From contig NC_000854.2 in the NCBI RefSeq assembly GCF_000011125.1, positions 1,560,001 through 1,592,000 on the forward strand: a stretch of DNA of 32,000 bases, read 5' to 3'. Made by a program: the position numbers and the translations under genes. This DNA comes from Aeropyrum pernix K1 (GTDB lineage: Archaea > Thermoproteota > Thermoprotei_A > Sulfolobales > Acidilobaceae). Of the stretch, positions 1 through 8,580 are shown piece after piece. Numbering within the stretch: position 1 is the stretch's first letter; each line of letters begins with the position of its first letter. Below the pieces are notes generated by a model. That model did no database searches. It was not told the DNA's origin and worked only from the letters and a program-made list of their open reading frames with translations.

Positions 1-1053
1 GAGGGGGTCGACGCCAGAAGACAAGCCCAAATAGACAGGCTCCTAATAGAACTAGACGGCACCCCGAACAAATCGAGACTCGGCGGGAACACGACCACCG
101 CTCTCAGCATAGCCGTTTCAAGAGCTGCGGCGGCTCAGGCACGCCTCGAACTCTTCCAGTATCTAGGCGGCGCCGGGGCTAGGAGACTCCCAATACCTCT
201 TCTCAACGTCATAAATGGTGGTGTTCACGCGGGGAACGAGCTAGACTTTCAGGAGTTTATGATAATACCTTATGGTTTTGAAAGCTTCACAGAAGCTATG
301 AGGGCTGCGGTGGAGACATACGGGGAGCTCAAGAGCCTGCTTAAGGACAGGTATGGTGCATCTGCAGTCAACGTCGGCGACGAAGGGGGTTTCGCACCCC
401 CTATGAGAAGCGCCGAAGAGGCCCTCAAGACTCTAGTGGATGCAGTGGAGAAAGCAGGCTACCAGCCCGGGAGCGAGATAGCCCTTGGCATTGACGCGGC
501 TGCGAGCCAGCTCTACAGTAACGGGCGCTACAGCGTTGAAGGGAAGAGCCTGTCCAGAGAGGAGCTCCTAAGCCTCTACCAGCGCTTGGTAGAGCAGTAT
601 CCAATAGTGTATCTTGAAGACCCATTTAGCGAGGACGACTATGAAGGTTTCAAGGCCGCCGTAGACGCCCTCTCGACAGAAACCATTATAGTGGGGGACG
701 ATCTCCTAGTTACCAATCCCCAGAGGGTTAAGGAGGCTTCCGCCCTCAAAGCAGTCACAGGCCTCCTAGTAAAGGTGAACCAGGTGGGGACTCTCACCGA
801 AGCTCTCGAAGCCATCCAGGCTGCGAGGGACAGGGGGATTGTCCACATAGTGAGCCACAGGAGCGGAGACACTGAGGACACCTTCATTGCCGACCTAGCC
901 GTCGCCACAGAAGCTTTGATGATCAAAACGGGAGCCCCAGCCCGGGGAGAGAGGACCTCGAAATACAACAGGCTCCTAGAAATAGAGAACATATTAGGCT
1001 ACTCAGCCGAATATGCAGGTCCAGAACTACGCGGCGTAATGGGCAGGCGCTGA
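1..1053 (+). CDS. eno: Enolase (phosphopyruvate hydratase), 5'-truncated by the window edge
   Basis: Frame 1 is open from base 1 (EGVDARRQAQIDRLLIELDGTPNKSRLGGNTTTALSIAVSRAAA...NVINGGVHAGNELDFQEFMIIP) and runs into track ORF 259..1053, so the Met at 259 is internal. SHRSGDTEDTFIADLAV and KTGAPARGERTSKYNRLLEIE are typical enolase C-terminal signatures. Confidence 0.93.
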   Translation, partial: EGVDARRQAQIDRLLIELDGTPNKSRLGGNTTTALSIAVSRAAAAQARLELFQYLGGAGARRLPIPLLNVINGGVHAGNELDFQEFMIIPYGFESFTEAMRAAVETYGELKSLLKDRYGASAVNVGDEGGFAPPMRSAEEALKTLVDAVEKAGYQPGSEIALGIDAAASQLYSNGRYSVEGKSLSREELLSLYQRLVEQYPIVYLEDPFSEDDYEGFKAAVDALSTETIIVGDDLLVTNPQRVKEASALKAVTGLLVKVNQVGTLTEALEAIQAARDRGIVHIVSHRSGDTEDTFIADLAVATEALMIKTGAPARGERTSKYNRLLEIENILGYSAEYAGPELRGVMGRR

Positions 1054-1090
1054 GACCCAGAAATCCTGCTCTGCGAAATCTATACTACAA

Positions 1091-1474
1091 TTGTTAAACC
1101 AGGCGACACTACAAAACTTTTATGGTGTCCGCTCCTTGCTATCCAGAATATTTTCAAGGTTAAAGGAGCTGACAGGGACGGGAAGAGGAGGGCTTTCCCG
1201 GGTTATAGTAGCCGTCGCCCCTAAAGACGATGAGGAGGCCCTTCCTAGGATACTTAGATGGCTTGCAGCCAAGGGCCTGAGACCCGATGAAACCATAGAG
1301 GCTAGTAGCAAGGATGAGGTAATCCAAGCCCTCGATAGTCTCAAGGGCATGATAGTAGTGGTTACTACCTCGTCTATGGCAAAGAACCTGGAGGAGTGGG
1401 CGAAGAGCCGGGGCCAGGGAGTAGTAGTTATAGATGTAGACAGCAATGCGCCTGGAATGAAAATGGGCTGCTAA
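1091..1474 (+). CDS. Hypothetical small protein (127 aa from TTG 1091; alternative TTG start at 1136)
   Basis: Only sizeable sense ORF between eno and the FixX-like gene. The antisense ORF 1120..1446 is Ser/Leu/Thr-rich and looks like an artefact. No motif recognised. Confidence 0.4.
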   Translation: MLNQATLQNFYGVRSLLSRIFSRLKELTGTGRGGLSRVIVAVAPKDDEEALPRILRWLAAKGLRPDETIEASSKDEVIQALDSLKGMIVVVTTSSMAKNLEEWAKSRGQGVVVIDVDSNAPGMKMGC

Positions 1475-1523
1475 AATAAACCCTCAGCACAACACCTACA
1501 CCCCCCGGGAGGAGTGAAAGGGG

Positions 1524-1826
1524 ATGTCTGCGAAGGTAGAGGATAGGATGCTGAGCATAGAGGATATACTCCAGAGGAACGTGTGGGACGTTGCCGAAGA
1601 CCCACATATAGAGATACCAAAAGGCGCCGACAACCAGAGTGGAATACCTAAGAAGGCCCTAGCCCTCCTATGCCCGGCAGCTTGCTATACGGAAATGGGT
1701 GACGAACTGCTCTTCAGCTACGAAGGCTGTGTGGAGTGTGCCCTCTGTAGGGTCATAACACCCAAGGAGAAGATATCCTGGCGGTACCTTAGGAGCGGGA
1801 GGGGTATTCAGTATAGATTCACTTAG
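1524..1826 (+). CDS. fixX: FixX-type ferredoxin-like protein
   Basis: 100 aa. The segment CPAACY...LFSYEGCVECALCRV...ISWRYLRSGRGIQYRF matches the FixX layout (CPAxxY, then GCxECxxCR, then C-terminal W.YPRGG.G..YRF). Confidence 0.7.
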   Translation: MSAKVEDRMLSIEDILQRNVWDVAEDPHIEIPKGADNQSGIPKKALALLCPAACYTEMGDELLFSYEGCVECALCRVITPKEKISWRYLRSGRGIQYRFT

Positions 1827-1889
1827 GATCGGCCTCTCAACAGTTAAGCTTTAAGGCTCAACACGCGTTCTGCGTTTAGGAGGTGGTCA

Positions 1890-3014
1890 GTGTTTGTGGC
1901 GGCCGAGAGGCTCGACCCTTGGGGAGCTGTCGAGATAAAGGATTATGACAGGCTTCTCCGCACCTTTGGTATCCGGCCTTTCAGCGAGGTTCTGCCACTC
2001 CTGCGTAAGGCGGGTATGGAGCCTAGTTTTCTCATGAGAAGGGGTATAATCTTTGGGCATAGAGACTTTGATAAAATCCTGGAGGCAAAGGCTAGGGGTG
2101 AGAGGGTAGCCGTCCTCACAGGGTTCATGCCTAGCGGTAAGTTCCACTTTGGCCACAAGCTCACAGTCGACCAGCTAATATACCTTCAGAAGAATGGTTT
2201 CAAGGTTTTCGTGGCTATAGCGGATGCGGAGGCATTTGCGGTAAGGAGGATAGGTAGGGAGGAGGCTGTGAGGATAGCCGTCGAAGAGTATATAGCCAAC
2301 ATGATAGCCCTTGGGCTCGACCCTAAGGACACCGAGTTCTATTTCCAGACCAACAGGGGCACACCGTACTTCAGGCTCATCCAACTCTTCTCAGGCAAGG
2401 TTACAGCAGCAGAGATGGAGGCAATATACGGTGAACTCACTCCAGCCAAGATGATGGCCTCACTAACCCAAGCGGCCGACATACTCCATGTGCAGTTAGA
2501 CGAGTACGGCGGCTACCGCCATGTAGTCGTCCCCGTGGGCGCTGACCAGGACCCCCACCTAAGGCTTACGAGGGACCTTGCAGACCGCATGGCAGGGGTG
2601 GTGGAGCTTGAAAGACCCGCAAGCACCTATCACAAGCTCCAGCCAGGCCTGGACGGGAGGAAGATGAGCAGCAGCAGGCCGGACTCGACAATATTCCTCA
2701 CAGACCCACCCGAAGTAGCGAGGAACAAGCTCTTCCGAGCCCTGACCGGGGGAAGAGCCACTGCTGAAGAGCAGAGGAGGCTTGGTGGAGTGCCTGAAGT
2801 GTGTAGCGTATACCATATGGACCTCTACCATCTAATGCCCGACGACGGGGAGGTAAAGCACATCTATACTAGCTGCAGGCTTGGGAAGATACTGTGCGGA
2901 GAATGCAAACAAATAGCATGGGAAAAACTAGAGAGGTTCCTAGCAGAGCATCAGAGCAGGCTAGAGAAGGCTAAAACTATCGCCTGGAAACTAGTGGAGC
3001 CGCCGCGATTCTAG
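1890..3014 (+). CDS. trpS: Tryptophanyl-tRNA synthetase, archaeal type
   Basis: N-terminal LDPWG...DYDRLLRTFGI. HIGH-type motif in TGFMPSGKFHFGHKL and KMSKS-type motif KMSSS. GTG start preceded by GGAGGTG (1879-1885). C-terminal C-x23-C-x6-C-x2-C motif. Confidence 0.9.
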   Translation: MFVAAERLDPWGAVEIKDYDRLLRTFGIRPFSEVLPLLRKAGMEPSFLMRRGIIFGHRDFDKILEAKARGERVAVLTGFMPSGKFHFGHKLTVDQLIYLQKNGFKVFVAIADAEAFAVRRIGREEAVRIAVEEYIANMIALGLDPKDTEFYFQTNRGTPYFRLIQLFSGKVTAAEMEAIYGELTPAKMMASLTQAADILHVQLDEYGGYRHVVVPVGADQDPHLRLTRDLADRMAGVVELERPASTYHKLQPGLDGRKMSSSRPDSTIFLTDPPEVARNKLFRALTGGRATAEEQRRLGGVPEVCSVYHMDLYHLMPDDGEVKHIYTSCRLGKILCGECKQIAWEKLERFLAEHQSRLEKAKTIAWKLVEPPRF

Positions 3015-3282
3015 CAACGAATATACACACCCCAACACTATGAATCCCGACACAGGGGATGAAGAGACGCTTTAGGGCCGAAACACAGATGAGGTAAGTA
3101 CCCTCGCCCGACCCCCATGTCCCTATGTCAATCTAGGGCTACAAACAGTGAACGCCAGAATCCCCAGCGAACAATGAAGTAAATAATAAATGCATGCAAT
3201 CAGACTCAGCCCATTCCATACAGCTACCTATAAACCTATTCTTCAGGCGAAAAAGCAAGAGCAAAGAAAGCAGGATCAGAGG

Positions 3283-3602
3283 CGGAGCCTTGGGCGCTTG
3301 TTAGCCCCGGGCTCTCTAGCCCAAGAACCGTAAGGGGGCAGCCCCTGTGGGCTAGAGAGCCGGGAAGTGGCGGAGCCCGAGCATAAGCGGCCGGAGGTGC
3401 TAGGCCGGCCGGCTCTCCGCCCCCAGGGTGCTCCAAGGCGGTGGGGGGCCGCCTTGGAGACCCTTTCGGAGCCCCTCCGGAGGGCTAGCCCTCCGGCCGC
3501 TGCTTTGCTCGGAGCCCCGCCTGCGCTCTCTAGCCCGGCGGGGTATTGCCCTCTGGTTCTTGGGCTAGAGAGCCCGGGGCTAACAAGCGCCCCAAGGCTC
3601 CG
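3283..3602. repeat. 320-bp GC-rich imperfect palindrome; candidate long-hairpin structured RNA or MITE-like/cruciform element, class unknown
   Basis: 3283-3329 is the reverse complement of 3555-3602 apart from one 1-nt indel. Inner complementary tiers are 3349-3360/3525-3536, 3369-3383/3506-3521 (one bulge, one mismatch) and 3387-3397/3490-3500. The apical hairpin is 3431-3441/3449-3459 with loop tgggggg. The three track ORFs crossing it are low-complexity and mutually overlapping. Confidence 0.85.
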
Positions 3603-3604
3603 GT

Positions 3605-3659
3605 GTGTTTATTGTGGGGGGTTGTTTATAGGGTGTTAGGGTGTTTATTGTGGGGGGTT
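3605..3659. repeat. Two perfect 19-nt direct repeats (gtgtttattgtggggggtt) at 3605-3623 and 3641-3659, period 36 bp
   Basis: Read directly from the sequence. Each repeat ends in a G6 tract. They flank the TATA-like tttata at 3625-3630 and sit immediately after the palindrome edge. Confidence 0.9.
3625..3630 (-). promoter_or_regulatory. Candidate TATA box (TATAAA on the minus strand) aimed at the palindrome
   Basis: On the minus strand, TATAAA starts 28 nt upstream of the palindrome edge at 3602, which is standard archaeal TATA-to-start spacing. T-runs follow the far edge on that strand (complement of A5 at 3250-3254). Confidence 0.35.
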
Positions 3660-3660
3660 A

Positions 3661-3670
3661 TTTTTATAAG
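3661..3670 (+). promoter_or_regulatory. AT-rich TATA-like element (tttttataag), possible promoter of the VKOR-like gene; could also work on the opposite strand
   Basis: Strongest AT-rich box in the gap, about 70 nt upstream of the TTG start at 3741. It is quasi-symmetric, so direction is not determined. Confidence 0.3.
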
Positions 3671-3740
3671 TACAAGTTTTATGGTTGTCTGTATATTCTT
3701 CTCTACTCAGAGTATTAACAGTTTAGTGGTGTAATGGAGT

Positions 3741-4178
3741 TTGTCGAGGCTTTCGCATGCTCTTCTTGCTGTCACTCTAGTTGGATATGCTGCCAGTATT
3801 GCTGGCTATTTCGAGTACGTTTCCGGCTCTGGGGTTTGTGAGATTGGTGATGTGGGTTTTGCTGTTGTTAACTGCTCTAGCGTTTACGATATTCCTGAGG
3901 CGGTTGTATTTGGCGTTGTTCATCTGAGTGTTTTAGCGCCAGTATATTTTACGTTACTTTCACTTGTTGCCCTGGCTTATTGGATTAGGCGGTCTCGCAT
4001 CTTTCTAATCGCCTCGTCCTTCCTTTCACTCGTAGGTGTTGTTACGGTTCCCTACCTGGTTTATCTAGAACTGTTCGTCGCTGGTGCTGTCTGCCTGTGG
4101 TGCACAGTCATGCATATATCTATACTTTTGGCCTTCGCGTTGGCAATTGTAGGCCTGCGGATTGGTGGCCACACCTAG
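3741..4178 (+). CDS. Vitamin K epoxide reductase (VKOR) family membrane oxidoreductase
   Basis: 145 aa with about 4 hydrophobic spans. Loop cysteine pair (GVCEIGD...VVNCSSVY) and a membrane-embedded CLWC redox motif in the last helix region. TTG is the first possible start after the in-frame TAA at 3732-3734. Confidence 0.72.
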   Translation: MSRLSHALLAVTLVGYAASIAGYFEYVSGSGVCEIGDVGFAVVNCSSVYDIPEAVVFGVVHLSVLAPVYFTLLSLVALAYWIRRSRIFLIASSFLSLVGVVTVPYLVYLELFVAGAVCLWCTVMHISILLAFALAIVGLRIGGHT

Positions 4179-4321
4179 GCTGTATTCAGTGTGGAACAAA
4201 TATTGGTTCGAAAATTAGGGGGTTAAGCCGTAATCCGCCTTAGCTGTAGCTGCAATAACTCGGGCGGGGGGTAACGGTTTATTTGTGTGGACTCGCCACT
4301 TGATGGTTTTGGTCTTCGAGG

Positions 4322-4648
4322 GTGGTCGGTTTGGAGCATGGAGTTTCTAAGGATTTTGAGGGGGAGGCTAGGATAGGGAGGGTTGTCAAGGACTTTCTGA
4401 GGCTTAGCTTGAAGCCGGAGGATTTCTCGAGCCCTGTGGCCCTGCAGATGGCCATTTCAAGGCTCTATGAGGGTATGATGAGGATGATGGAGAGGGGAGG
4501 CCCTCAGCCTACATATGTGGCGGAAGTCAGGTTTACGGATGATATGGGCAACCCTGTTGTTATAGCTGTCGAGCTGGGGCCGGAGACGCCGCCCTTCTCT
4601 AGGGATAGGGTTAAGGCCAGGATTAGGGTGGAGCTTTACGAGGAGTAG
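4322..4648 (+). CDS. Hypothetical protein (108 aa, GTG start)
   Basis: Plausible composition (charged, AGG/AGA Arg codons). No motif recognised. Convergent with the PhoH-like gene, 13 bp apart. Confidence 0.5.
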   Translation: MVGLEHGVSKDFEGEARIGRVVKDFLRLSLKPEDFSSPVALQMAISRLYEGMMRMMERGGPQPTYVAEVRFTDDMGNPVVIAVELGPETPPFSRDRVKARIRVELYEE

Positions 4649-4661
4649 CCGGTTACCGGGC

Positions 4662-5834
4662 CTACCTCCTCCTTCGCCTCCCCCGCCTCTCCTCAACTTC
4701 TTCGACAAACACTCCTACGCCGAGAAGCTTTCTCACTATCTCGTCCAGGAACCTTATGTGCGCTCCTTTCTGCCCTAGCATCGGCCCCATATGCTCCTTG
4801 CTGACCTTGATCTTGAGCTGGGGCCCTGCGAAGTCGAAGTCGATCACGTGTTTGTGTATCCAGCTGACGGGGTGTATGGCCCTCACTATCTCCTTCAGAT
4901 CTAGGGTGTGCTCTATGGCCCGGATCCTTAGGCCGGTCTCTCCCTCAATCTTCTCTATCCTCTCACCGCCCCTTCCTATAAAGCGGCCTAAGTGGCCCTC
5001 TTTGACCACGACTAAAACGTCTGGGACGTGATCGCTCTCTATACCCCACTTCCTCTTGGCGTCTTGGAGGTCTACGGCCGTTATTATATCAGCGTCGGGC
5101 GAGTGCATTCTAGCAGCCTCTATAACCTCCTTCTCCGCCTGGTTCAGCGTCCTCCTCCTCATGAGGAGTTCCATGAGCATCTTAACACCCCTCTTCGCCC
5201 CCGGCCTCACGATATCCTTCAGGCCAAGGTCGACAACTTCGGCTGTGGGCTCGTTGCTGAGTATTTCTCTAGCCATACTGGCTCCGTCTAGGCCTGGCTC
5301 GCTAGTCCTCTGGAAAACTGGATCACCGATAACTATGAGCTTGCTCCCCGTGCCAAGCCTCGTTATTATCTCAACTATAGCCTCGGGTGGCATGCTCTGC
5401 GAGTCGTCAACGATTATAACGCTGTTGTCGAAGGTTCTACCCCTTAGGAAGTGAGGATCAACAAGCACGAGGCTATCGCTAGACAGTATCTCCCTTACCC
5501 TCTCCTCACCGAGGAAGCCCGACAGTATGTCCATAAGGTATTCGGCTGCAAGCCTCCTGTAGGATTGGGCGTCAGTCATGACTGTTAGCTCCCGGCCTGT
5601 GACGACGTCTATCACTGGCCTAGCAAGCACGACCCTCCTGAACCTTCCCTCCGCCGTCATGCTGACTCCATATACTATGGAAAACAGGCTCTTCCCCGTG
5701 CCCGTAGGGCCGAAGACCCCCACTAGGTCTACATCAGACAGGAGGGCCTCCTTAAGCTCTCTCTGGCCCTCGCTTTTAGGCTCTAAAGCGTCAAAGAGCC
5801 CCTTAAACTTGTCCAGCCCATCCACTCTGCCCAC
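4662..5834 (-). CDS. PhoH-like P-loop ATPase fused to C-terminal KH RNA-binding domain(s)
   Basis: Walker A GPTGTGKS and Walker B-like VIIVDDSQ in a PhoH-like arrangement. The C-terminal third has KH-type GxxG signatures (LGRFIGRGGERIEKIEGETG and MLGQKGAHIRFL). Confidence 0.8.
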   Translation of the reverse strand: MGRVDGLDKFKGLFDALEPKSEGQRELKEALLSDVDLVGVFGPTGTGKSLFSIVYGVSMTAEGRFRRVVLARPVIDVVTGRELTVMTDAQSYRRLAAEYLMDILSGFLGEERVREILSSDSLVLVDPHFLRGRTFDNSVIIVDDSQSMPPEAIVEIITRLGTGSKLIVIGDPVFQRTSEPGLDGASMAREILSNEPTAEVVDLGLKDIVRPGAKRGVKMLMELLMRRRTLNQAEKEVIEAARMHSPDADIITAVDLQDAKRKWGIESDHVPDVLVVVKEGHLGRFIGRGGERIEKIEGETGLRIRAIEHTLDLKEIVRAIHPVSWIHKHVIDFDFAGPQLKIKVSKEHMGPMLGQKGAHIRFLDEIVRKLLGVGVFVEEVEERRGRRRRR

Positions 5835-5921
5835 CCAGGGATAGACATAACTATACTCTCCTGGGCCAATATTCGCTAGACGGGCAACCTGGGTTGCAGG
5901 CTATAGAGGGGTGCACCGTAT

Positions 5922-7277
5922 TTGCTGACCTACGGCCCAAGGGAGATTAGAGCGCTGCTTGAGGCGTTGGAGGCTGCTGAAAGGAGGAAGCCAGCGCAGG
6001 TCAGCAAGAGGGAGGTGTTCGCCCGCCACGGCCTCTTGGGTTCAAAGTATGATAGGGTGTTCACAGCTATAATGTACAAGATGTTTAGGATGCAGGGAGT
6101 TCTCGACAGGGCGGTTGCACACGCACTAGGGGTAAGGCCTGAGGATGTTATCGGATTCGAGCCTATGCTTAGACAGGCCCTAAGGCTCTCCGCCTACCTG
6201 GCTCAGTTCGACGAGACCAGGGACAGAAGGCTCATCTCTGCTCTCCTACGTCACGGCCTCCCCCTGCTGGCTTCCCGATATGGATGGAGGAAGGCCAGGC
6301 TTGTACATAAGGTTTTGGAAAGGCTTATCGACGAGCCGTGGAAGCCTTCGACGCGTGAAGAGGAGTTCATGGCCAGGTATATGGTGCCTATCGACATCGT
6401 GATAATGGCGAGAAGGGTCGTCGCTGGAGATGACGAGCTAGAAAAGCTCTTGGACGCGATAAACAGACCCCCTGTTAATAGTGTTAGAGTGAACACCCTC
6501 AAGGCTAGCTTCGACGAGGTTTATAAGGCCATAAGATCCAGCGGCCTCTACGCATGGCCATCTGACAGAGTAGAGGGTGTGATAAGGTATAGGGGTCCGT
6601 TTAACGACACACTAGCCAGGCTCCTGGCAGAGGGGAAAATTGTCCCCCAGGATGAGTCGAGCGCTGCAGCAGCCCCCCTCCTCCAACCAAGGCCGGGAGA
6701 GATTGTGCTGGACATGTGCGCTGCTCCCGGCGGAAAGACAACCCATCTAGCCGAGCTTTCAAGACTCCAGGCAAGAATACTCGGCTTCGATATTTACTGG
6801 GACAGGCTTAGGAGGATGAAGACCCTTGTTGAAGCTACCGCCTCAGAGGCGGCAGTAGCCGTTGTAAAGGCTGACGCCGCAAATGCTCCTAAAATCCTGG
6901 GTAGGGGGTCTGTTGACAAGATCCTCCTGGACCCGCCCTGCAGCACCACGGGGGGTCTCCACAAGAATGTGGACGCCCGGTGGAGGCTAACGAGAAGGAA
7001 GATAATGGAGCTTCAAGAGCTGCAGAAGACGCTCCTCGACGCAGCGGTGGAGACTGTAAAGCCTGGGGGCCTTATACTATATACTGTGTGCAGCATACTC
7101 GCGGAAGAAGGCGAGGACGTAGTACTCCACGCGCTAGAAAAATGGGGGAACCTTGAAATCGTTCCCCTAAACGGCCCCTACGACGAATCCCCCATACTTC
7201 CCGGTACTATGAGGGCATGGCCCCATAGACACGGGGTGACAGGCTTCTTCTACGCCCTTCTCAGGAAGAAGGGTTAA
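5922..7277 (+). CDS. NOL1/NOP2/Sun-family RNA cytosine-C5 methyltransferase
   Basis: SAM motif DMCAAPGGKT, motif IV DPPCS and motif VI YTVCS with the two catalytic cysteines. TTG start. Confidence 0.88.
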   Translation: MLTYGPREIRALLEALEAAERRKPAQVSKREVFARHGLLGSKYDRVFTAIMYKMFRMQGVLDRAVAHALGVRPEDVIGFEPMLRQALRLSAYLAQFDETRDRRLISALLRHGLPLLASRYGWRKARLVHKVLERLIDEPWKPSTREEEFMARYMVPIDIVIMARRVVAGDDELEKLLDAINRPPVNSVRVNTLKASFDEVYKAIRSSGLYAWPSDRVEGVIRYRGPFNDTLARLLAEGKIVPQDESSAAAAPLLQPRPGEIVLDMCAAPGGKTTHLAELSRLQARILGFDIYWDRLRRMKTLVEATASEAAVAVVKADAANAPKILGRGSVDKILLDPPCSTTGGLHKNVDARWRLTRRKIMELQELQKTLLDAAVETVKPGGLILYTVCSILAEEGEDVVLHALEKWGNLEIVPLNGPYDESPILPGTMRAWPHRHGVTGFFYALLRKKG

Positions 7278-7392
7278 GAGCCTGAGGGTCTATGCCAGGG
7301 TTATATCTGCCTCCGGTAGCAAGTCCTCTTCTAATGTTTGCAGCGGTTCGGAAGGACGTTACGCGGGGTGGGGAGGGTTTAACAGGGCGGCT

Positions 7393-8580
7393 ATGGCTGT
7401 AGCTGCTTATAACGTATTCAGAGGGTTCGCCGTCGGAGGCTACATGGCCCTCTTCCCCATGTACATGAGAAGCCTCGGCTATAGCATGGAGAATATAGGC
7501 GGTGTTATAGCCGTTTCTAGCCTAGTTTCAGCACTGGTTTTGCCAGCTGTAGGCGTTTACATAGACAGGATGGGCCCCCGAACATGGGTAATCCTGACTG
7601 GGGTACTCCAGTTCGCCGGGATAGCGATCCTCATCCCAGATCCAAGCATAGCGGGCTTAACCTCCAGCTACCTACTCTTCCTGCTATCGTTTATGGCAGG
7701 CCAGCCCTCTAGAATGAGCTTCCTCGCTAGGAGTATTGATGTAAGTAGCCTAGGCTACATTGTGGGGGTAACGAGTAGCGTTTTCAGCGCCTCAAGACTC
7801 GTAGGCCCGGCAGCGGGAGGCTACATATCGGAGGCTCTAGGATTCCAGGGTGCATTCGAGGTCCTCGCCGCCTCAAGCCTAGTGGGGCTTATGCTATTCA
7901 CAATCCTCTCAACAGGTGTGAGGCTACGTGAGGTGGACAGGCCGAGAAGCGTGCTGGAGGCGTATAAGAGCCTGCTTAACCCGGACCCGGGCTTCGGGAG
8001 GTTCCTAGTCTTCATAGGTGTTGACAGGCTATCTTGGAGTCTCTGGTTCCAAATGCTCACAGCCCACCTCTACAACCATGGGTTCTCAGAGTTTCAGGCG
8101 GGCCTTGCTGTAACCGTAAGCGGCGTAGTCCAAACGGGAGGCCTCCCGCTAGCGGGGAGGCTCGTCGACAGGCTCGGCGCCGTTATAGGCTTGATAGCCA
8201 GCGAGGCCCTTGGCGCAATGGCGGCTATACTACTTATGGATCCAACACCTCTCAGAGTGTATCCAGCTATGGTATTGATGGGCCTCTCCATAGCATACTG
8301 GGTACCCTCTTACAATAAGATGGTCGCTCTACTCCGAGGAGAAGGGGGAACCGGCTACACCCAGGTCAACACCGTTCGAAGTATAGCGGGGGCTCCGGGC
8401 CCCTACCTAGGCGGCCTACTCTACGACGCTATCTCGCCGATGGCCCCATTCGCCGTCTCATCAATACTCCTCTTATCCCTCGCAATCCTCGGGAAGAAGC
8501 TAATGATCGTTGAGAGAGCTGAGGAGGAGGCGGTTGTAAAGGTTTTGGCGCCCGAGCCGGTTAAGTCTTGGGACAGCTAG
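7393..8580 (+). CDS. MFS-type transporter
   Basis: 395 aa with about 11-12 hydrophobic spans in two halves. Loop motifs PAVGVYIDRMGPR and LAGRLVDRLG resemble the MFS D-R-x-G-R-R loop. Confidence 0.8.
   Translation: MAVAAYNVFRGFAVGGYMALFPMYMRSLGYSMENIGGVIAVSSLVSALVLPAVGVYIDRMGPRTWVILTGVLQFAGIAILIPDPSIAGLTSSYLLFLLSFMAGQPSRMSFLARSIDVSSLGYIVGVTSSVFSASRLVGPAAGGYISEALGFQGAFEVLAASSLVGLMLFTILSTGVRLREVDRPRSVLEAYKSLLNPDPGFGRFLVFIGVDRLSWSLWFQMLTAHLYNHGFSEFQAGLAVTVSGVVQTGGLPLAGRLVDRLGAVIGLIASEALGAMAAILLMDPTPLRVYPAMVLMGLSIAYWVPSYNKMVALLRGEGGTGYTQVNTVRSIAGAPGPYLGGLLYDAISPMAPFAVSSILLLSLAILGKKLMIVERAEEEAVVKVLAPEPVKSWDS

What the first reader, a model, noticed from the sequence alone, without database searches (positions are those of the whole stretch)
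3283..3602. 320-bp imperfect palindrome with near-perfect 47/48-nt arms, not matching the standard ~300-nt archaeal RNAs
Seen directly: 3283-3329 is the reverse complement of 3555-3602 with a single 1-nt indel. The two-fold symmetry continues inward in degraded form: 3349-3360 gggctagagagc pairs with 3525-3536 gctctctagccc; 3369-3383 pairs with 3506-3521 with one bulge and one mismatch; 3387-3397 gcggccggagg pairs with 3490-3500 cctccggccgc. The apex is an 11-bp hairpin at 3431-3441/3449-3459 with loop tgggggg. The whole element could therefore fold into one interrupted rod of about 150 bp as RNA on either strand, or extrude as a DNA cruciform. Each arm also carries local alternative hairpins, for example 3334-3345. 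It is the GC-richest piece of a 726-bp gap in an otherwise tightly packed genome. The three track ORFs over it are Ala/Pro/Gly/Arg-rich overlapping artefacts. Promoter geometry is plausible. On the minus strand, TATAAA (3630-3625) starts 28 nt before the palindrome edge, and T-runs follow the other edge (complement of 3250-3254). On the plus strand, TATAAA at 3229-3234 lies about 55 nt upstream and T5 at 3661-3665 follows. Mismatch types (A.C versus G.U) are mixed, so the transcribed strand cannot be decided. I could not find the universally conserved SRP helix-8 motif (GNAR loop followed by AGCA) or RNase P CR-I/CR-V-like strings. Neither of those RNAs is palindromic along its full length. 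Perfect outer arms with a decayed interior also fit a MITE, but I see no target-site duplication at the edges (cagagg|c ... g|gtgtgt).
Basis: partly seen in the sequence, partly recalled or inferred. Interest (0 to 1): 0.75.

Follow-up and report, generated by a model that had tools for sequence, protein, structure and literature searches.

The report
Conserved giant hairpin gene in Aeropyrum
A 320-base, G+C-rich, almost perfectly self-complementary stretch beside the VKOR gene of the hyperthermophilic archaeon Aeropyrum pernix is conserved as a long hairpin in related archaea, carries its own promoter-like and terminator-like signals, and matches no known RNA family. It is most likely an undescribed structured RNA gene of unknown function.

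Summary
Window 3283-3602 is an imperfect palindrome with 47/48-nt outer arms and an 11-bp apical hairpin. It folds as one ~130-pair rod on either strand (z -16 and -18) and still folds at 90 C.

The window is Aeropyrum pernix K1. It is not SRP RNA, RNase P RNA or any Rfam family. I found no sign that it is a MITE or virus-derived.

Homologous rods of 211-320 nt lie beside VKOR in A. camini, an Aeropyrum sp. MAG and three uncultured relatives. Two more are cut by contig ends.

- The outer arms of A. pernix and A. camini are only 38-48% identical, as low as neutral spacer, yet stay paired.
- A 114-nt apical module is 87% identical and shows clear covariation.
- Polarity is conserved. On the window's minus strand every full-length rod has a TATA-like box 28-34 nt upstream, and a pyrimidine-rich or G+C-rich tail with T-runs downstream. 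Four of them, plus one truncated homologue, also have a CCCACA motif between TATA and rod.

Best reading (confidence 0.5): a stand-alone minus-strand hairpin RNA gene, divergent from VKOR, whose conserved tip is the functional site.

Main rival: a DNA-level palindrome kept paired by arm-to-arm copying, because G.U counts show no strand bias. There is no transcript evidence and the function is unknown.

The parts
3283..3602 (-). The whole rod: a 320-nt imperfect palindrome and candidate hairpin RNA gene. The RNA-sense strand is inferred to be the minus strand.
   Evidence: Inverted repeats. MFE -264.7 (-) and -272 (+), z -18 and -16. Still a single rod at 90 C, MFE -81. Homologous rods: L011:7384-7704, L024:3535-3782, L099:2110-2371, L100:2133-2343, L102:2121-2336.
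3283..3329 (.). Left outer arm. It pairs with 3555-3602.
   Evidence: repeats I1 and I7: 38 + 12 nt at 100% complementarity with one 1-nt indel. Only 38-48% identical to A. camini, yet 13 of 24 outer-stem pairs are compensatory.
3555..3602 (.). Right outer arm. It pairs with 3283-3329.
   Evidence: repeats I1 and I7.
3386..3500 (-). Conserved apical module. It is 87% identical to A. camini and is recognisable in five loci.
   Evidence: Covariance model R1 hits, C-loop strand only: window 3386-3500 (98 bits), L011 (110), L024 (99), L099 (47), L012 (33). Covariation: 87.6% of cells paired versus 71.4% shuffled (0/500); 21 pairs with double changes versus 10.2 (0/500); slid controls 38-52%. Segment identity.
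3442..3448 (-). Apical heptaloop: CCCCCCA on the minus strand, TGGGGGG on the plus strand. It closes an 11-bp stem, 3431-3441/3449-3459.
   Evidence: repeat I13. The loop is identical in A. camini, L024, L099 and L012 while the stem covaries (CTCCAAGGCGG, GCTAGGAGCGG, CCCCGGGGGCG, CCACGGCG).
3420..3424 (-). G5 run in the internal loop 3' of the apical stem on the minus strand (CCCCC on the plus strand). Beyond it on the minus strand come GGAGAG and the palindromic GCCGGCCGGC helix (plus-strand 3405-3414).
   Evidence: Conserved as UGGGGGCGG(A/G)G..GCCGGCCGGC in A. pernix, A. camini and L024. A G5-7 run also sits there in L099 and L012.
3625..3630 (-). TATA box (TATAAA on the minus strand). It starts 28 nt before the first paired base of the rod.
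   Evidence: Read. A TATA-like hexamer starts at -28 to -34 on the same (C-loop) strand in all six full-length homologues. The region 3603-3670 is 76% identical to A. camini, against 34-39% for the spacers.
3605..3623 (.). Copy 1 of the direct repeat GTGTTTATTGTGGGGGGTT, lying between the TATA box and the rod. On the minus strand it reads CCCCCCACAATAAACAC and contains the conserved CCCACA motif at about -17 to -11.
   Evidence: repeat D1. CCCACA sits at the same distance in A. camini, L024, L099 and L012.
3641..3659 (.). Copy 2 of the direct repeat. It lies upstream of the minus-strand TATA box and next to a second TATA-like box, TTTTTATAA at 3661-3669, that faces VKOR.
   Evidence: repeat D1 (92% identical copies). 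Both copies are conserved in A. camini.
3250..3282 (-). 3' tail and candidate terminator on the minus strand: CCUCUGAUCCUGCUUUCUUUGCUCUUGCUUUUU.
   Evidence: Read. After the 3' edge all six homologues have T-runs: T5 in A. pernix, L100 and L102, T4 in A. camini and in L099 (where T3 runs lie nearer the edge), only T2 in L024. The stretch before them is pyrimidine-rich in A. pernix, A. camini, L024 and L100, and G+C-rich in L099 and L102.

Best explanation
Window 3283-3602 is a single-copy gene for a long hairpin ('rod') RNA. It is vertically inherited and transcribed from the minus strand, divergently from the VKOR gene.

Inferred steps (none shown experimentally):
1. An archaeal TATA box at 3630-3625, with a conserved CCCACA element between it and the start, places initiation at about 3602.
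2. The transcript folds as it is made into a helix of about 130 base pairs over a rod about 150 positions long, G+C-rich, which is predicted to stay folded at 90 C.
3. Transcription ends in the pyrimidine-rich tail and T-runs at about 3282-3250.
4. The working part is the conserved 114-nt tip: a CCCCCCA loop on a covarying 11-13-bp stem, an A/U-rich bulge opposite a G5 run, and the GCCGGCCGGC helix. It most likely serves as a binding platform for a protein or another nucleic acid.
5. The long arms are free to vary in sequence and act as a thermostable, nuclease-resistant handle.

Shown here: the palindrome, its conservation, the covariation, the conserved polarity and the promoter/terminator geometry.
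Inferred only: transcription, the transcribed strand, and the role of the tip.
For: 1. Statistical reality: z -16 and -18. All six rods remain single rods at 90 C.

2. Conserved position.
- A. camini has the same trpS-rod-VKOR order.
- The Aeropyrum sp. MAG L024 has VKOR(-), then the rod(+), then trpS(+).
- L099, L100 and L102 have the rod, then SNase(-), then VKOR(+).
- L012 and L095 carry truncated copies after trpS.

3. Structure is conserved, not sequence.
- Outer arms are 38-48% identical between A. pernix and A. camini, the same as neutral spacer (34-39%). Even so, 16 of 90 pairs are compensatory in that two-species comparison alone.
- In the apical module, 21 of 38 pairs have double changes, 87.6% of cells are paired versus 71.4% shuffled (0/500), and slid controls give 38-52%.

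4. Conserved polarity, which a symmetric DNA site would not need.
- The CCCCCCA loop, the G5 bulge, the TATA side and the tail side keep the same mutual orientation in A. pernix, A. camini, L024, L099 and L012, even though the unit is inverted relative to trpS in L024 and L012.
- Unpaired positions are A/C-rich on that strand: A 76 / U 34 and C 79 / G 28 in total. A exceeds U and C exceeds G in each of the six rods.

5. Promoter and terminator geometry.
- A TATA-like hexamer starts at -28 to -34 in 6 of 6 rods.
- CCCACA lies at about -17 to -11 in 5 loci.
- T-runs follow the 3' edge in all six rods (T5 in three, T4 in two, only T2 in L024); the stretch before them is pyrimidine-rich in four and G+C-rich in L099 and L102.
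- In L099, L100 and L102 the TATA box lies between the 3' end of a convergent gene and the rod, so it cannot be serving VKOR.
- The promoter region is 76% identical between the two Aeropyrum species.

6. A G+C-rich island (72%) in a 48%-G+C intergenic gap. From general knowledge, this is typical of RNA genes in hyperthermophiles.

7. Not coding.
Against: - I could obtain no transcript data.
- G.U pairs show no strand bias: 31 on the proposed RNA strand versus 38 on the other.
- Predicted stability favours the other strand in A. pernix, A. camini and L099.
- More than 93% of pairs are Watson-Crick. The outer 47 bp are perfect although they evolve at the neutral rate.
- A. pernix carries the same 14-mer symmetrically in both arms. 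These last three features are what DNA-level arm-to-arm copying would produce.
- The tip is not conserved in L100 and L102.
- The distribution is narrow, and no partner protein or target was identified.
- TATA boxes are nearly symmetric, and T-rich sequence also follows the rod on the other strand.
Confidence: 0.5

Rival explanations
1. It is a DNA-level palindrome and has no RNA role. The two arms are kept complementary by copying one arm onto the other, through intramolecular gene conversion or template switching on a hairpin. The element either acts as DNA (a hairpin or cruciform recognised by a protein, or a barrier to replication or transcription) or simply persists.
For: - There is no G.U versus A.C strand bias: 31 versus 38.
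- Neither strand is consistently more stable.
- The outer arms diverge at the neutral rate (38-48% identity versus 34-39% for spacer) yet are perfect over 47 bp in A. pernix and 25 bp in A. camini.
- The A. pernix-specific 14-mer GGGCTCTCTAGCCC sits at mirror positions in both arms, which needs a DNA copying step.
- Short-read assemblies break at the element.
Against: - The polarity of tip and flanks is conserved in five loci, and unpaired bases are A/C-rich on one strand in all six.
- L024 keeps regular 3x3 and 4x4 mismatched internal loops that frequent conversion would erase.
- TATA spacing and T-runs are conserved.
- From general knowledge, long palindromes with short spacers are unstable as DNA, and cruciform extrusion needs negative supercoiling, which is unlikely in a reverse-gyrase organism growing at 90-95 C.
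- Arm-to-arm copying could also operate on an RNA gene, so the evidence for it does not exclude an RNA role.
Confidence: 0.2
2. It is an RNA gene, but the plus strand is the one transcribed. That RNA would carry the UGGGGGG loop.
For: - The plus strand folds 7-12 kcal/mol better in A. pernix, A. camini and L099 and has slightly more G.U pairs, 38 versus 31.
- TATAAA at 3229-3234 and a T5 run at 3661-3665 exist in A. pernix.
- Overall G>C on that strand is usual for structured RNAs (general knowledge).
Against: - The 3229 TATAAA lies 54 nt from the rod and is not conserved in A. camini (ATAACC).
- A/T-rich runs on that side sit anywhere from -10 to -54 in the six loci.
- L100 and L102 fold better on the other strand.
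- Loops on this strand would be U/G-rich rather than A-rich.
Confidence: 0.12
3. It is a cis-acting part of a neighbouring transcription unit rather than a gene of its own. It could be a 3' stabiliser or terminator for the upstream gene on its strand (SNase in L099, L100 and L102), or an insulator or regulator of the divergent VKOR promoter.
For: - It is always within 60-140 bp of VKOR or SNase.
- In L099, L100 and L102 it lies directly downstream of SNase on the same strand.
- In Aeropyrum and L024 it shares a short, conserved, repeat-bearing intergenic region with VKOR.
Against: - In Aeropyrum and L024 no gene lies upstream on its strand, yet the TATA box is kept.
- With SNase in between, it cannot be part of the VKOR leader in L099, L100 and L102.
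- A 215-320-nt rod with a conserved tip is far more than termination needs.
- The 3' tail shows no complementarity to the VKOR start region beyond chance in any of six genomes.
- More distant VKOR loci have no rod.
Confidence: 0.1
4. It is the relic of a MITE or other palindromic mobile element that inserted once in an ancestor.
For: The size, the terminal inverted repeats and the intergenic location fit. The outer arms are more nearly perfect than the interior.
Against: - There is no target-site duplication.
- There is one copy in the 32-kb window.
- No extra copy was found in about 280 kb of related loci, nor in phage, plasmid or viral collections.
- Its spurious ORF has no relatives among 5.8 billion proteins.
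- Its position beside VKOR is conserved in six genomes with compensatory change. A decaying relic would lose pairing.
Confidence: 0.05

Closest known systems
Archaeal SRP (7S) RNA, Rfam RF01857
   Same: About 300 nt, G+C-rich in hyperthermophiles. The 5' and 3' ends pair, so the molecule is an elongated rod. It is a stand-alone gene.
   Different: - No helix 6 or helix 8 branch.
- No GNAR loops or AGCA motif.
- It is a single unbranched hairpin.
- No Rfam match even at E<=10.
Bacterial 6S RNA
   Same: A largely double-stranded rod RNA in which structure is conserved far better than sequence, produced from its own gene.
   Different: - 6S RNA has a large central bubble that mimics an open promoter. 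This rod has only small internal loops, and its conserved part is the hairpin tip.
- No Rfam 6S match.
- No 6S-like RNA is known in archaea (my own knowledge).
Palindromic intergenic repeats and MITEs (ERIC/IRU, Correia elements, Sulfolobus SM1-4)
   Same: Imperfect palindromes of 100-350 bp in intergenic DNA that fold as long hairpins when transcribed.
   Different: Those are dispersed multi-copy families, often with target-site duplications. This element looks single-copy and syntenic beside VKOR, and evolves by compensatory change.
Archaeal pre-rRNA processing stems and other bulge-helix-bulge precursors (for example the permuted SRP RNA of Thermoproteus)
   Same: Long, near-perfect helices formed by inverted repeats that flank an RNA.
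   Different: No bulge-helix-bulge motif is present. The nearest arrangement is a 3-nt bulge, 8 positions, then a 3x1 loop (structure). The enclosed sequence is itself the continuation of the same hairpin.
Viroid-like rod RNAs and eukaryotic long hairpin RNAs
   Same: A 250-400-nt quasi-double-stranded rod with small, regularly spaced internal loops, a conserved core and variable arms.
   Different: It is chromosomally encoded and linear, with a blunt base. I noticed no circularisation signal and did not look for ribozymes. It occurs in an archaeon that, to my knowledge, lacks RNase III and Dicer.
Orphan G+C-rich ncRNAs of hyperthermophiles found by composition screens (the Hgc RNAs of Methanocaldococcus and Pyrococcus)
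   Same: A G+C-rich island in an A+T-richer intergenic region, with own promoter signals and unknown function.
   Different: No sequence or structure match to any of them in Rfam. The near-perfect helix of about 130 pairs is unusual.

Membership tests
Archaeal SRP RNA (RF01857) | Match to the covariance model. Helix 8 with a GNAR loop and the conserved AGCA/GA internal loops. Helix 6. | tested here: not met
   No hit at gathering score in the whole window and none at E<=10 in 3100-3800. The fold is unbranched.
Archaeal SRP RNA (RF01857) | About 300 nt with paired 5' and 3' ends giving an elongated shape. | tested here: met
   A 320-nt rod. This feature is not specific to SRP RNA.
Archaeal RNase P RNA (RF00373, RF02357) | Match to the covariance model and the CR-I to CR-V conserved regions. 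| tested here: not met
   No hit.
MITE / palindromic mobile repeat | Several dispersed copies in one genome. | tested here: inconclusive
   One copy in the 32-kb window. No extra copies in about 280 kb of related loci. The ORF proxy finds only itself. The complete A. pernix genome could not be scanned: the genome collection returned neither A. pernix nor A. camini.
MITE / palindromic mobile repeat | Target-site duplication flanking the terminal inverted repeats. | tested here: not met
   The flanks are cagagg|...|gtgtgt. None is seen in the homologues either.
MITE / palindromic mobile repeat | Presence or absence at otherwise orthologous sites, rather than stable synteny. | tested here: not met
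   The element lies beside VKOR (or SNase-VKOR) in six genomes.
6S RNA | A large central bubble flanked by long helices, and a match to the Rfam 6S models. | tested here: not met
   No Rfam hit. The largest internal loops are 4-8 nt and lie near the tip.
Bulge-helix-bulge processed or circularised archaeal RNA | Two 3-nt bulges on opposite strands separated by a 4-bp helix. | tested here: not met
   Inspection of the predicted structures. The nearest arrangement has 8 positions between a 3-nt bulge and a 3x1 loop.
C/D-box or H/ACA guide RNA | C/D boxes (RUGAUGA, CUGA), or an ACA box with a pseudouridylation pocket and k-turn. | tested here: not met
   No boxes in 3283-3602. The only box-H/ACA entry in Rfam is a chance-level match to Pyrobaculum sRNA 209 (14.3 bits, E 9.1). 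The neighbouring element at 3055-3113 is a C/D sRNA.
Stand-alone archaeal ncRNA gene (generic) | Own TATA box about 25-30 nt upstream and an oligo-T terminator. | tested here: met
   By sequence only: TATA-like hexamer at -28 to -34 in 6 of 6 rods. T-runs follow the 3' edge in five rods (T5 in three, T4 in two); L024 has only T2, so the terminator signal is weak there.
Stand-alone archaeal ncRNA gene (generic) | Compensatory base changes that preserve the structure. | tested here: met
   DNA-level arm copying could mimic this signal in the arms.
Stand-alone archaeal ncRNA gene (generic) | A discrete transcript. | not testable with these tools
Replication origin (ORB/mini-ORB plus an A+T-rich unwinding element) | ORB repeats flanking an A+T-rich region next to orc1/cdc6 or whiP, and a marker-frequency peak. 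| not tested
   I ran no motif search or annotation for ORB repeats or initiator genes. By eye the region read shows no ORB-like repeat, and the ORFs in window 1-8000 that I inspected do not look like orc1/cdc6 or whiP. The element itself is 72% G+C.

The most novel reading that the evidence does not exclude
The rod is the founding member of a new class of archaeal RNA: a chromosomally encoded, near-perfect double-stranded RNA of about 130 base pairs. It would work either as a double-helix mimic or decoy for a nucleic-acid-binding machine (by analogy with 6S RNA), or as the substrate of a still unknown double-stranded-RNA pathway in Crenarchaeota, which lack RNase III. In this reading the C6 loop and the G5 bulge are the recognition or dimerisation elements.
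Probability: 0.12. Interest if true: 0.85.

Novelty: new variant of a known kind. Interest (0 to 1): 0.55.

Why it matters
If it is transcribed, this would be an undescribed archaeal RNA family with an unusual build. It is essentially one thermostable helix of about 130 base pairs with a conserved C-rich tip, in organisms growing at 90-95 C that have no known double-stranded-RNA processing enzymes.

It would add to the very short list of non-guide, non-housekeeping RNAs known in Crenarchaeota. It would also give a tractable handle, a 114-nt conserved module, for finding its partner.

If instead it is a DNA palindrome kept paired by arm-to-arm copying, it is a natural example of a long palindrome being tolerated and renewed in a hyperthermophile. 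That bears on how archaeal Mre11-Rad50 and replication handle hairpins.

Either way the locus explains why short-read assemblies of Aeropyrum break here.

Tried and rejected
1. Rfam at gathering score on the whole window and at E<=10 on 3100-3800 gave only chance-level microRNA-like hairpin matches. No Rfam or tRNA hits in the homologous loci. No tRNA in the window.

2. An exact-pattern scan for the conserved core (CCGCCCCCAGGG..GGGGGG..CCCTTTCGG) found nothing in genome contigs or metagenome contigs. The pattern does match the window and A. camini. So those two genomes are absent or masked in the genome collection and the pattern was too strict for other relatives.

3. BLASTN of the rod against phages and plasmids found nothing. 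A strict tip pattern in viral contigs gave 0 hits. A loose pattern gave 82 G+C-rich chance hits, none of which the covariance model accepted.

4. A search with the 90-aa ORF across the rod, as a proxy for homologous rods called as genes, returned only itself.

5. trpS-anchored synteny. Several close relatives (L013, L015, L096, L097) have other genes directly after trpS and no rod. The rod travels with VKOR, not with trpS.

6. VKOR-anchored search of JGI metagenomes. None of 30 more distant VKOR loci has a rod or a model hit. A first sliding-window script timed out and a first inverted-repeat script had a bug.

7. A whole-rod alignment of six homologues with MAFFT and RNAalifold failed, because the arms are too divergent and differ in length. 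Only the tip could be aligned.

8. Strand assignment from G.U counts and folding energies gave no consistent answer.

9. Pairing of the 3' tail with the VKOR start region was no better than shuffled tails in any of six genomes.

10. A co-occurring small protein as a possible partner. The 108-aa ORF next to VKOR is conserved within Aeropyrum but is unrelated to the 108-aa ORF in L099.

11. Bulge-helix-bulge motifs, k-turns and C/D or H/ACA boxes were looked for by eye in the sequence and predicted structures and not found.

12. 'Flip-flop' inversion of the tip. I considered this when L012 showed the loop as CCCCCCA on the trpS strand. I rejected it because the flanking CCCACA motif shows that the whole unit, not just the tip, is inverted there.

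13. Literature searches on Aeropyrum ncRNAs, hairpins and origins found no description of this element.
Full report
**Source and context.** The TrpS protein encoded at 1890-3014 is 100% identical to that of Aeropyrum pernix K1, so the window is from that hyperthermophilic crenarchaeon. The finding lies in the 726-bp gap between trpS (+) and a VKOR-family gene (+, 3741-4178). No tRNA gene and no Rfam family reaches threshold anywhere in the window.

- The repeat finder reports perfect complementary arms at 3292-3329/3555-3592 (38 nt) and 3283-3294/3591-3602 (12 nt).
- The 320 nt fold into one rod of 129-134 base pairs on either strand: -272 kcal/mol (+) and -264.7 (-), against -171 and -164 for shuffles, z -16 and -18.
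- The rod persists in a 90 C fold.
- G+C is 72%, against 40-50% in the flanks.
- It is the only long inverted repeat in the 32 kb.
- The ORFs across it are artefacts.

**It is not one of the standard RNAs.** Rfam gives no match at gathering thresholds. At E<=10 it gives only chance-level hairpin resemblances to microRNA precursors, equally on both strands. SRP RNA, RNase P RNA, 6S RNA and guide RNAs are therefore excluded as far as covariance models can see.

**It is conserved, and what is conserved is the hairpin.**
- A. camini has the same trpS-gap-VKOR arrangement with a 321-nt rod at L011:7384-7704.
- Segment by segment, the two species are 38-48% identical in the outer arms. That is no better than the unconstrained spacers (34-39%).
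- They are 87% identical in the central 105 columns and 76% in the 68 bp just right of the rod.
- Despite the arm divergence both rods are almost fully paired. A two-sequence RNAalifold run finds 16 compensatory pairs, 13 of them in the outer stem.

**More homologues came from synteny.** An exact-pattern scan of the public collections found nothing. A. pernix and A. camini themselves did not come back from the genome collection, so they are absent or masked there. Following trpS and VKOR homologues gave the following.
- L024, an Aeropyrum sp. MAG with TrpS 84% identical: a 248-nt rod at 3535-3782 between VKOR (-) and trpS (+).
- L099, L100 and L102 (= L105), uncultured relatives with VKOR about 50% identical: rods of 262, 211 and 216 nt between a peptidase M17 gene and SNase(-)/VKOR(+).
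- L012 and L095: truncated copies at contig ends after trpS.
- Other close relatives have different genes after trpS and no rod there.
- One VKOR locus (L106) and 30 more distant VKOR loci from metagenomes have none.

So the element is confined to Aeropyrum and a few relatives, appears to be single-copy, and travels with VKOR.

**The tip is a conserved module.** In A. pernix, A. camini, L024, L099 and L012 the apex reads, on one strand:
1. a short helix,
2. a 3-4-nt A/U-rich bulge (AAA, UAU, AUAA, UACA),
3. an apical stem of 8-13 bp in the different loci whose sequence covaries,
4. the invariant loop CCCCCCA,
5. the returning stem,
6. a G5-7 run,
7. and, in the Aeropyrum group, GG(A/G)G..GCCGGCCGGC.

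A covariance model of 114 positions built from these five sequences recovers them at 33-110 bits, on that strand only. It finds nothing else in 280 kb of related loci or 716 kb of viral loci. On the model alignment:
- 87.6% of cells are standard pairs, against 71.4% after shuffling (0 of 500 shuffles reach it).
- 21 of 38 pairs show changes on both sides, against 10.2 expected (0 of 500).
- Sliding the partners by 1-3 columns drops pairing to 38-52%.

L100 and L102 have rods in the equivalent place, but their tips differ (L102 has loop CUCCUCA).

**The element has a polarity, and it fits a transcription unit on the window's minus strand.** I aligned the six full-length rods on the strand that carries the C-rich loop (the minus strand in the window).
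- Each has a TATA-like hexamer (TATAAA, TATAAG, TATAAATA, TTAAAT) starting 28-34 nt before the first paired base, with A-rich sequence just upstream as expected of a BRE.
- A. pernix, A. camini, L024 and L099 among these, and the truncated L012, have CCCACA at about -17 to -11.
- After the last paired base T-runs follow in all six: T5 in A. pernix, L100 and L102, T4 in A. camini and L099, only T2 in L024. The stretch before them is pyrimidine-rich in A. pernix, A. camini, L024 and L100 (CCUCU, CCUCUC, CCCUCUCUUC, UCCCCUCCCUCC) and G+C-rich in L099 and L102.
- On the opposite strand the A/T-rich stretches lie anywhere from 10 to 54 nt from the rod.
- In L099, L100 and L102 the TATA box lies between the 3' end of the convergent SNase gene and the rod, so it cannot be a promoter for VKOR.
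- In L024 and L012 the whole unit (flank motifs, loop and bulge together) is inverted relative to trpS. That is how an independent gene behaves, and it rules out mere flipping of the tip.
- Positions unpaired in the folds of both strands are A/C-rich on the C-loop strand: A 76, U 34, C 79, G 28. A exceeds U and C exceeds G in each of the six rods.

**What speaks for a DNA-level process.**
- G.U pairs are rare (2-10 per rod) and equally frequent on both strands (31 versus 38).
- Predicted stability favours the C-loop strand in three rods and the other strand in three.
- The A. pernix outer arms are perfect over 47 bp although they evolve as fast as spacer.

These features suggest that one arm is sometimes copied onto the other. 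That process could act on an RNA gene as well, so it does not exclude the RNA reading. It does mean that covariation in the arms is weaker evidence for RNA-level selection than it looks. Against a purely DNA role stand the conserved polarity, the persistent mismatched 3x3 and 4x4 internal loops in L024, and the promoter/terminator geometry. From general knowledge, cruciform extrusion is also difficult in positively supercoiled DNA at 90 C.

**Other readings tested.**
- MITE: there is no target-site duplication, no second copy anywhere I could look, and stable synteny. However, the complete source genome could not be scanned.
- Viral or plasmid origin: no similarity.
- Replication origin: the element is G+C-rich. 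I saw no ORB-like repeat or initiator gene by eye in the sequence and ORFs I inspected, but ran no dedicated search. A. pernix has only two origins by marker-frequency analysis (PMC10769869), though I could not get their coordinates.
- Antisense regulator of VKOR through its 3' tail: duplex energies are no better than shuffled tails.
- Bulge-helix-bulge processing, k-turns and guide-RNA boxes: not found.

**Conclusion.** The best-supported explanation (confidence 0.5) is a stand-alone, single-copy gene for a thermostable hairpin RNA of 215-320 nt. It would be transcribed from the minus strand, starting at about 3602 and ending at about 3250-3280, and divergently paired with VKOR. Its conserved C-loop/G-bulge tip is the functional site and its long arms are a structural handle. 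Transcription, strand and function are inferences.

The main rival (0.2) is a DNA palindrome maintained by arm-to-arm copying. Lesser rivals are a plus-strand RNA (0.12), a cis-element of neighbouring genes (0.1) and a mobile-element relic (0.05).

I found no description of the element in Rfam or in the literature I could search. I therefore rate it an orphan variant of the 'G+C-rich structured RNA gene of a hyperthermophile' kind. Its near-perfect helix of about 130 base pairs is unusual.

Noticed in passing
window 3055-3113 (+): A C/D-box guide sRNA lies directly downstream of trpS, with boxes GAUGAAGA / CCGA / GAUGAGG / CCGA and terminal GGGG/CCCC. It gives a weak Rfam sR39 match (18 bits, E 0.008, below gathering score) that shares the guide AGUACCCUCGC. 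It is conserved after trpS in A. camini (L011:7173-7237), L012, L024 (about 5186-5250) and L095, including relatives that have no rod there.
   Followed up: partly
L099:1927-1995, L100:1981-2050, L102:1906-1975 (+): A conserved element of about 70 nt (GTTCCGGCCGCAAGGCGCCCGCC...GGGCGGGCACGGGGTCC) sits just outside the rod's 3' edge in three uncultured relatives. Its stem, internal loop and stem look H/ACA-like. It has no Rfam or tRNA hit and is absent from the A. pernix window.
   Followed up: partly
window 3605-3669: There are two tandem modules between the rod and VKOR, each a GTGTTTATTGTGGGGGGTT repeat followed by a TATA-like box (TTTATA at 3625-3630, TTTTTATAA at 3661-3669). Both are conserved in A. 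camini. L099 has one module. They probably form a shared, factor-regulated divergent promoter region.
   Followed up: partly
window 3309-3322, 3349-3362, 3523-3536, 3562-3575: Four copies of the near-palindromic 14-mer GGGCTCTCTAGCCC, two per arm at mirror positions (5 matches in the window versus 1.06 expected). They are specific to A. pernix. They allow each arm to fold on itself, and they suggest a duplication that was copied from one arm to the other.
   Followed up: partly
L001-L010 (Logan assemblies of A. pernix runs SRR26374275-300 and SRR4136260/1): Every short-read contig carrying trpS ends at window 3212-3293. Contigs carrying VKOR start at 3563, 3621 or 3660. The start at 3563 is the first 31-mer that is unique beyond the perfect 38-nt arm. 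So the palindrome breaks assemblies and is probably under-covered in sequencing. The SRR26374xxx runs are probably those of PRJNA1027590, but I did not verify this.
   Followed up: partly
Genome-contig collection: Neither A. pernix nor A. camini came back from the species-representative genome collection, either with a pattern that matches both or with their own TrpS protein. The source genome appears to be absent or masked there, so copy number in the source genome could not be measured.
   Followed up: no
window 4322-4648 (+) and 4662-5834 (-): A 108-aa ORF with no Pfam domain, 87% identical in the Aeropyrum sp. MAG L024, and a PhoH-like ATPase with KH (RNA-binding) domains. In Aeropyrum both keep the order PhoH/KH, 108-aa ORF, VKOR, rod. 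The more distant rod-bearing loci do not share this linkage.
   Followed up: partly
L189:3611-3694: An unrelated palindromic hairpin in a viral contig scored weakly with the tip model on both strands (26 and 24 bits, E 0.24 and 0.51). I judged it a chance match.
   Followed up: no
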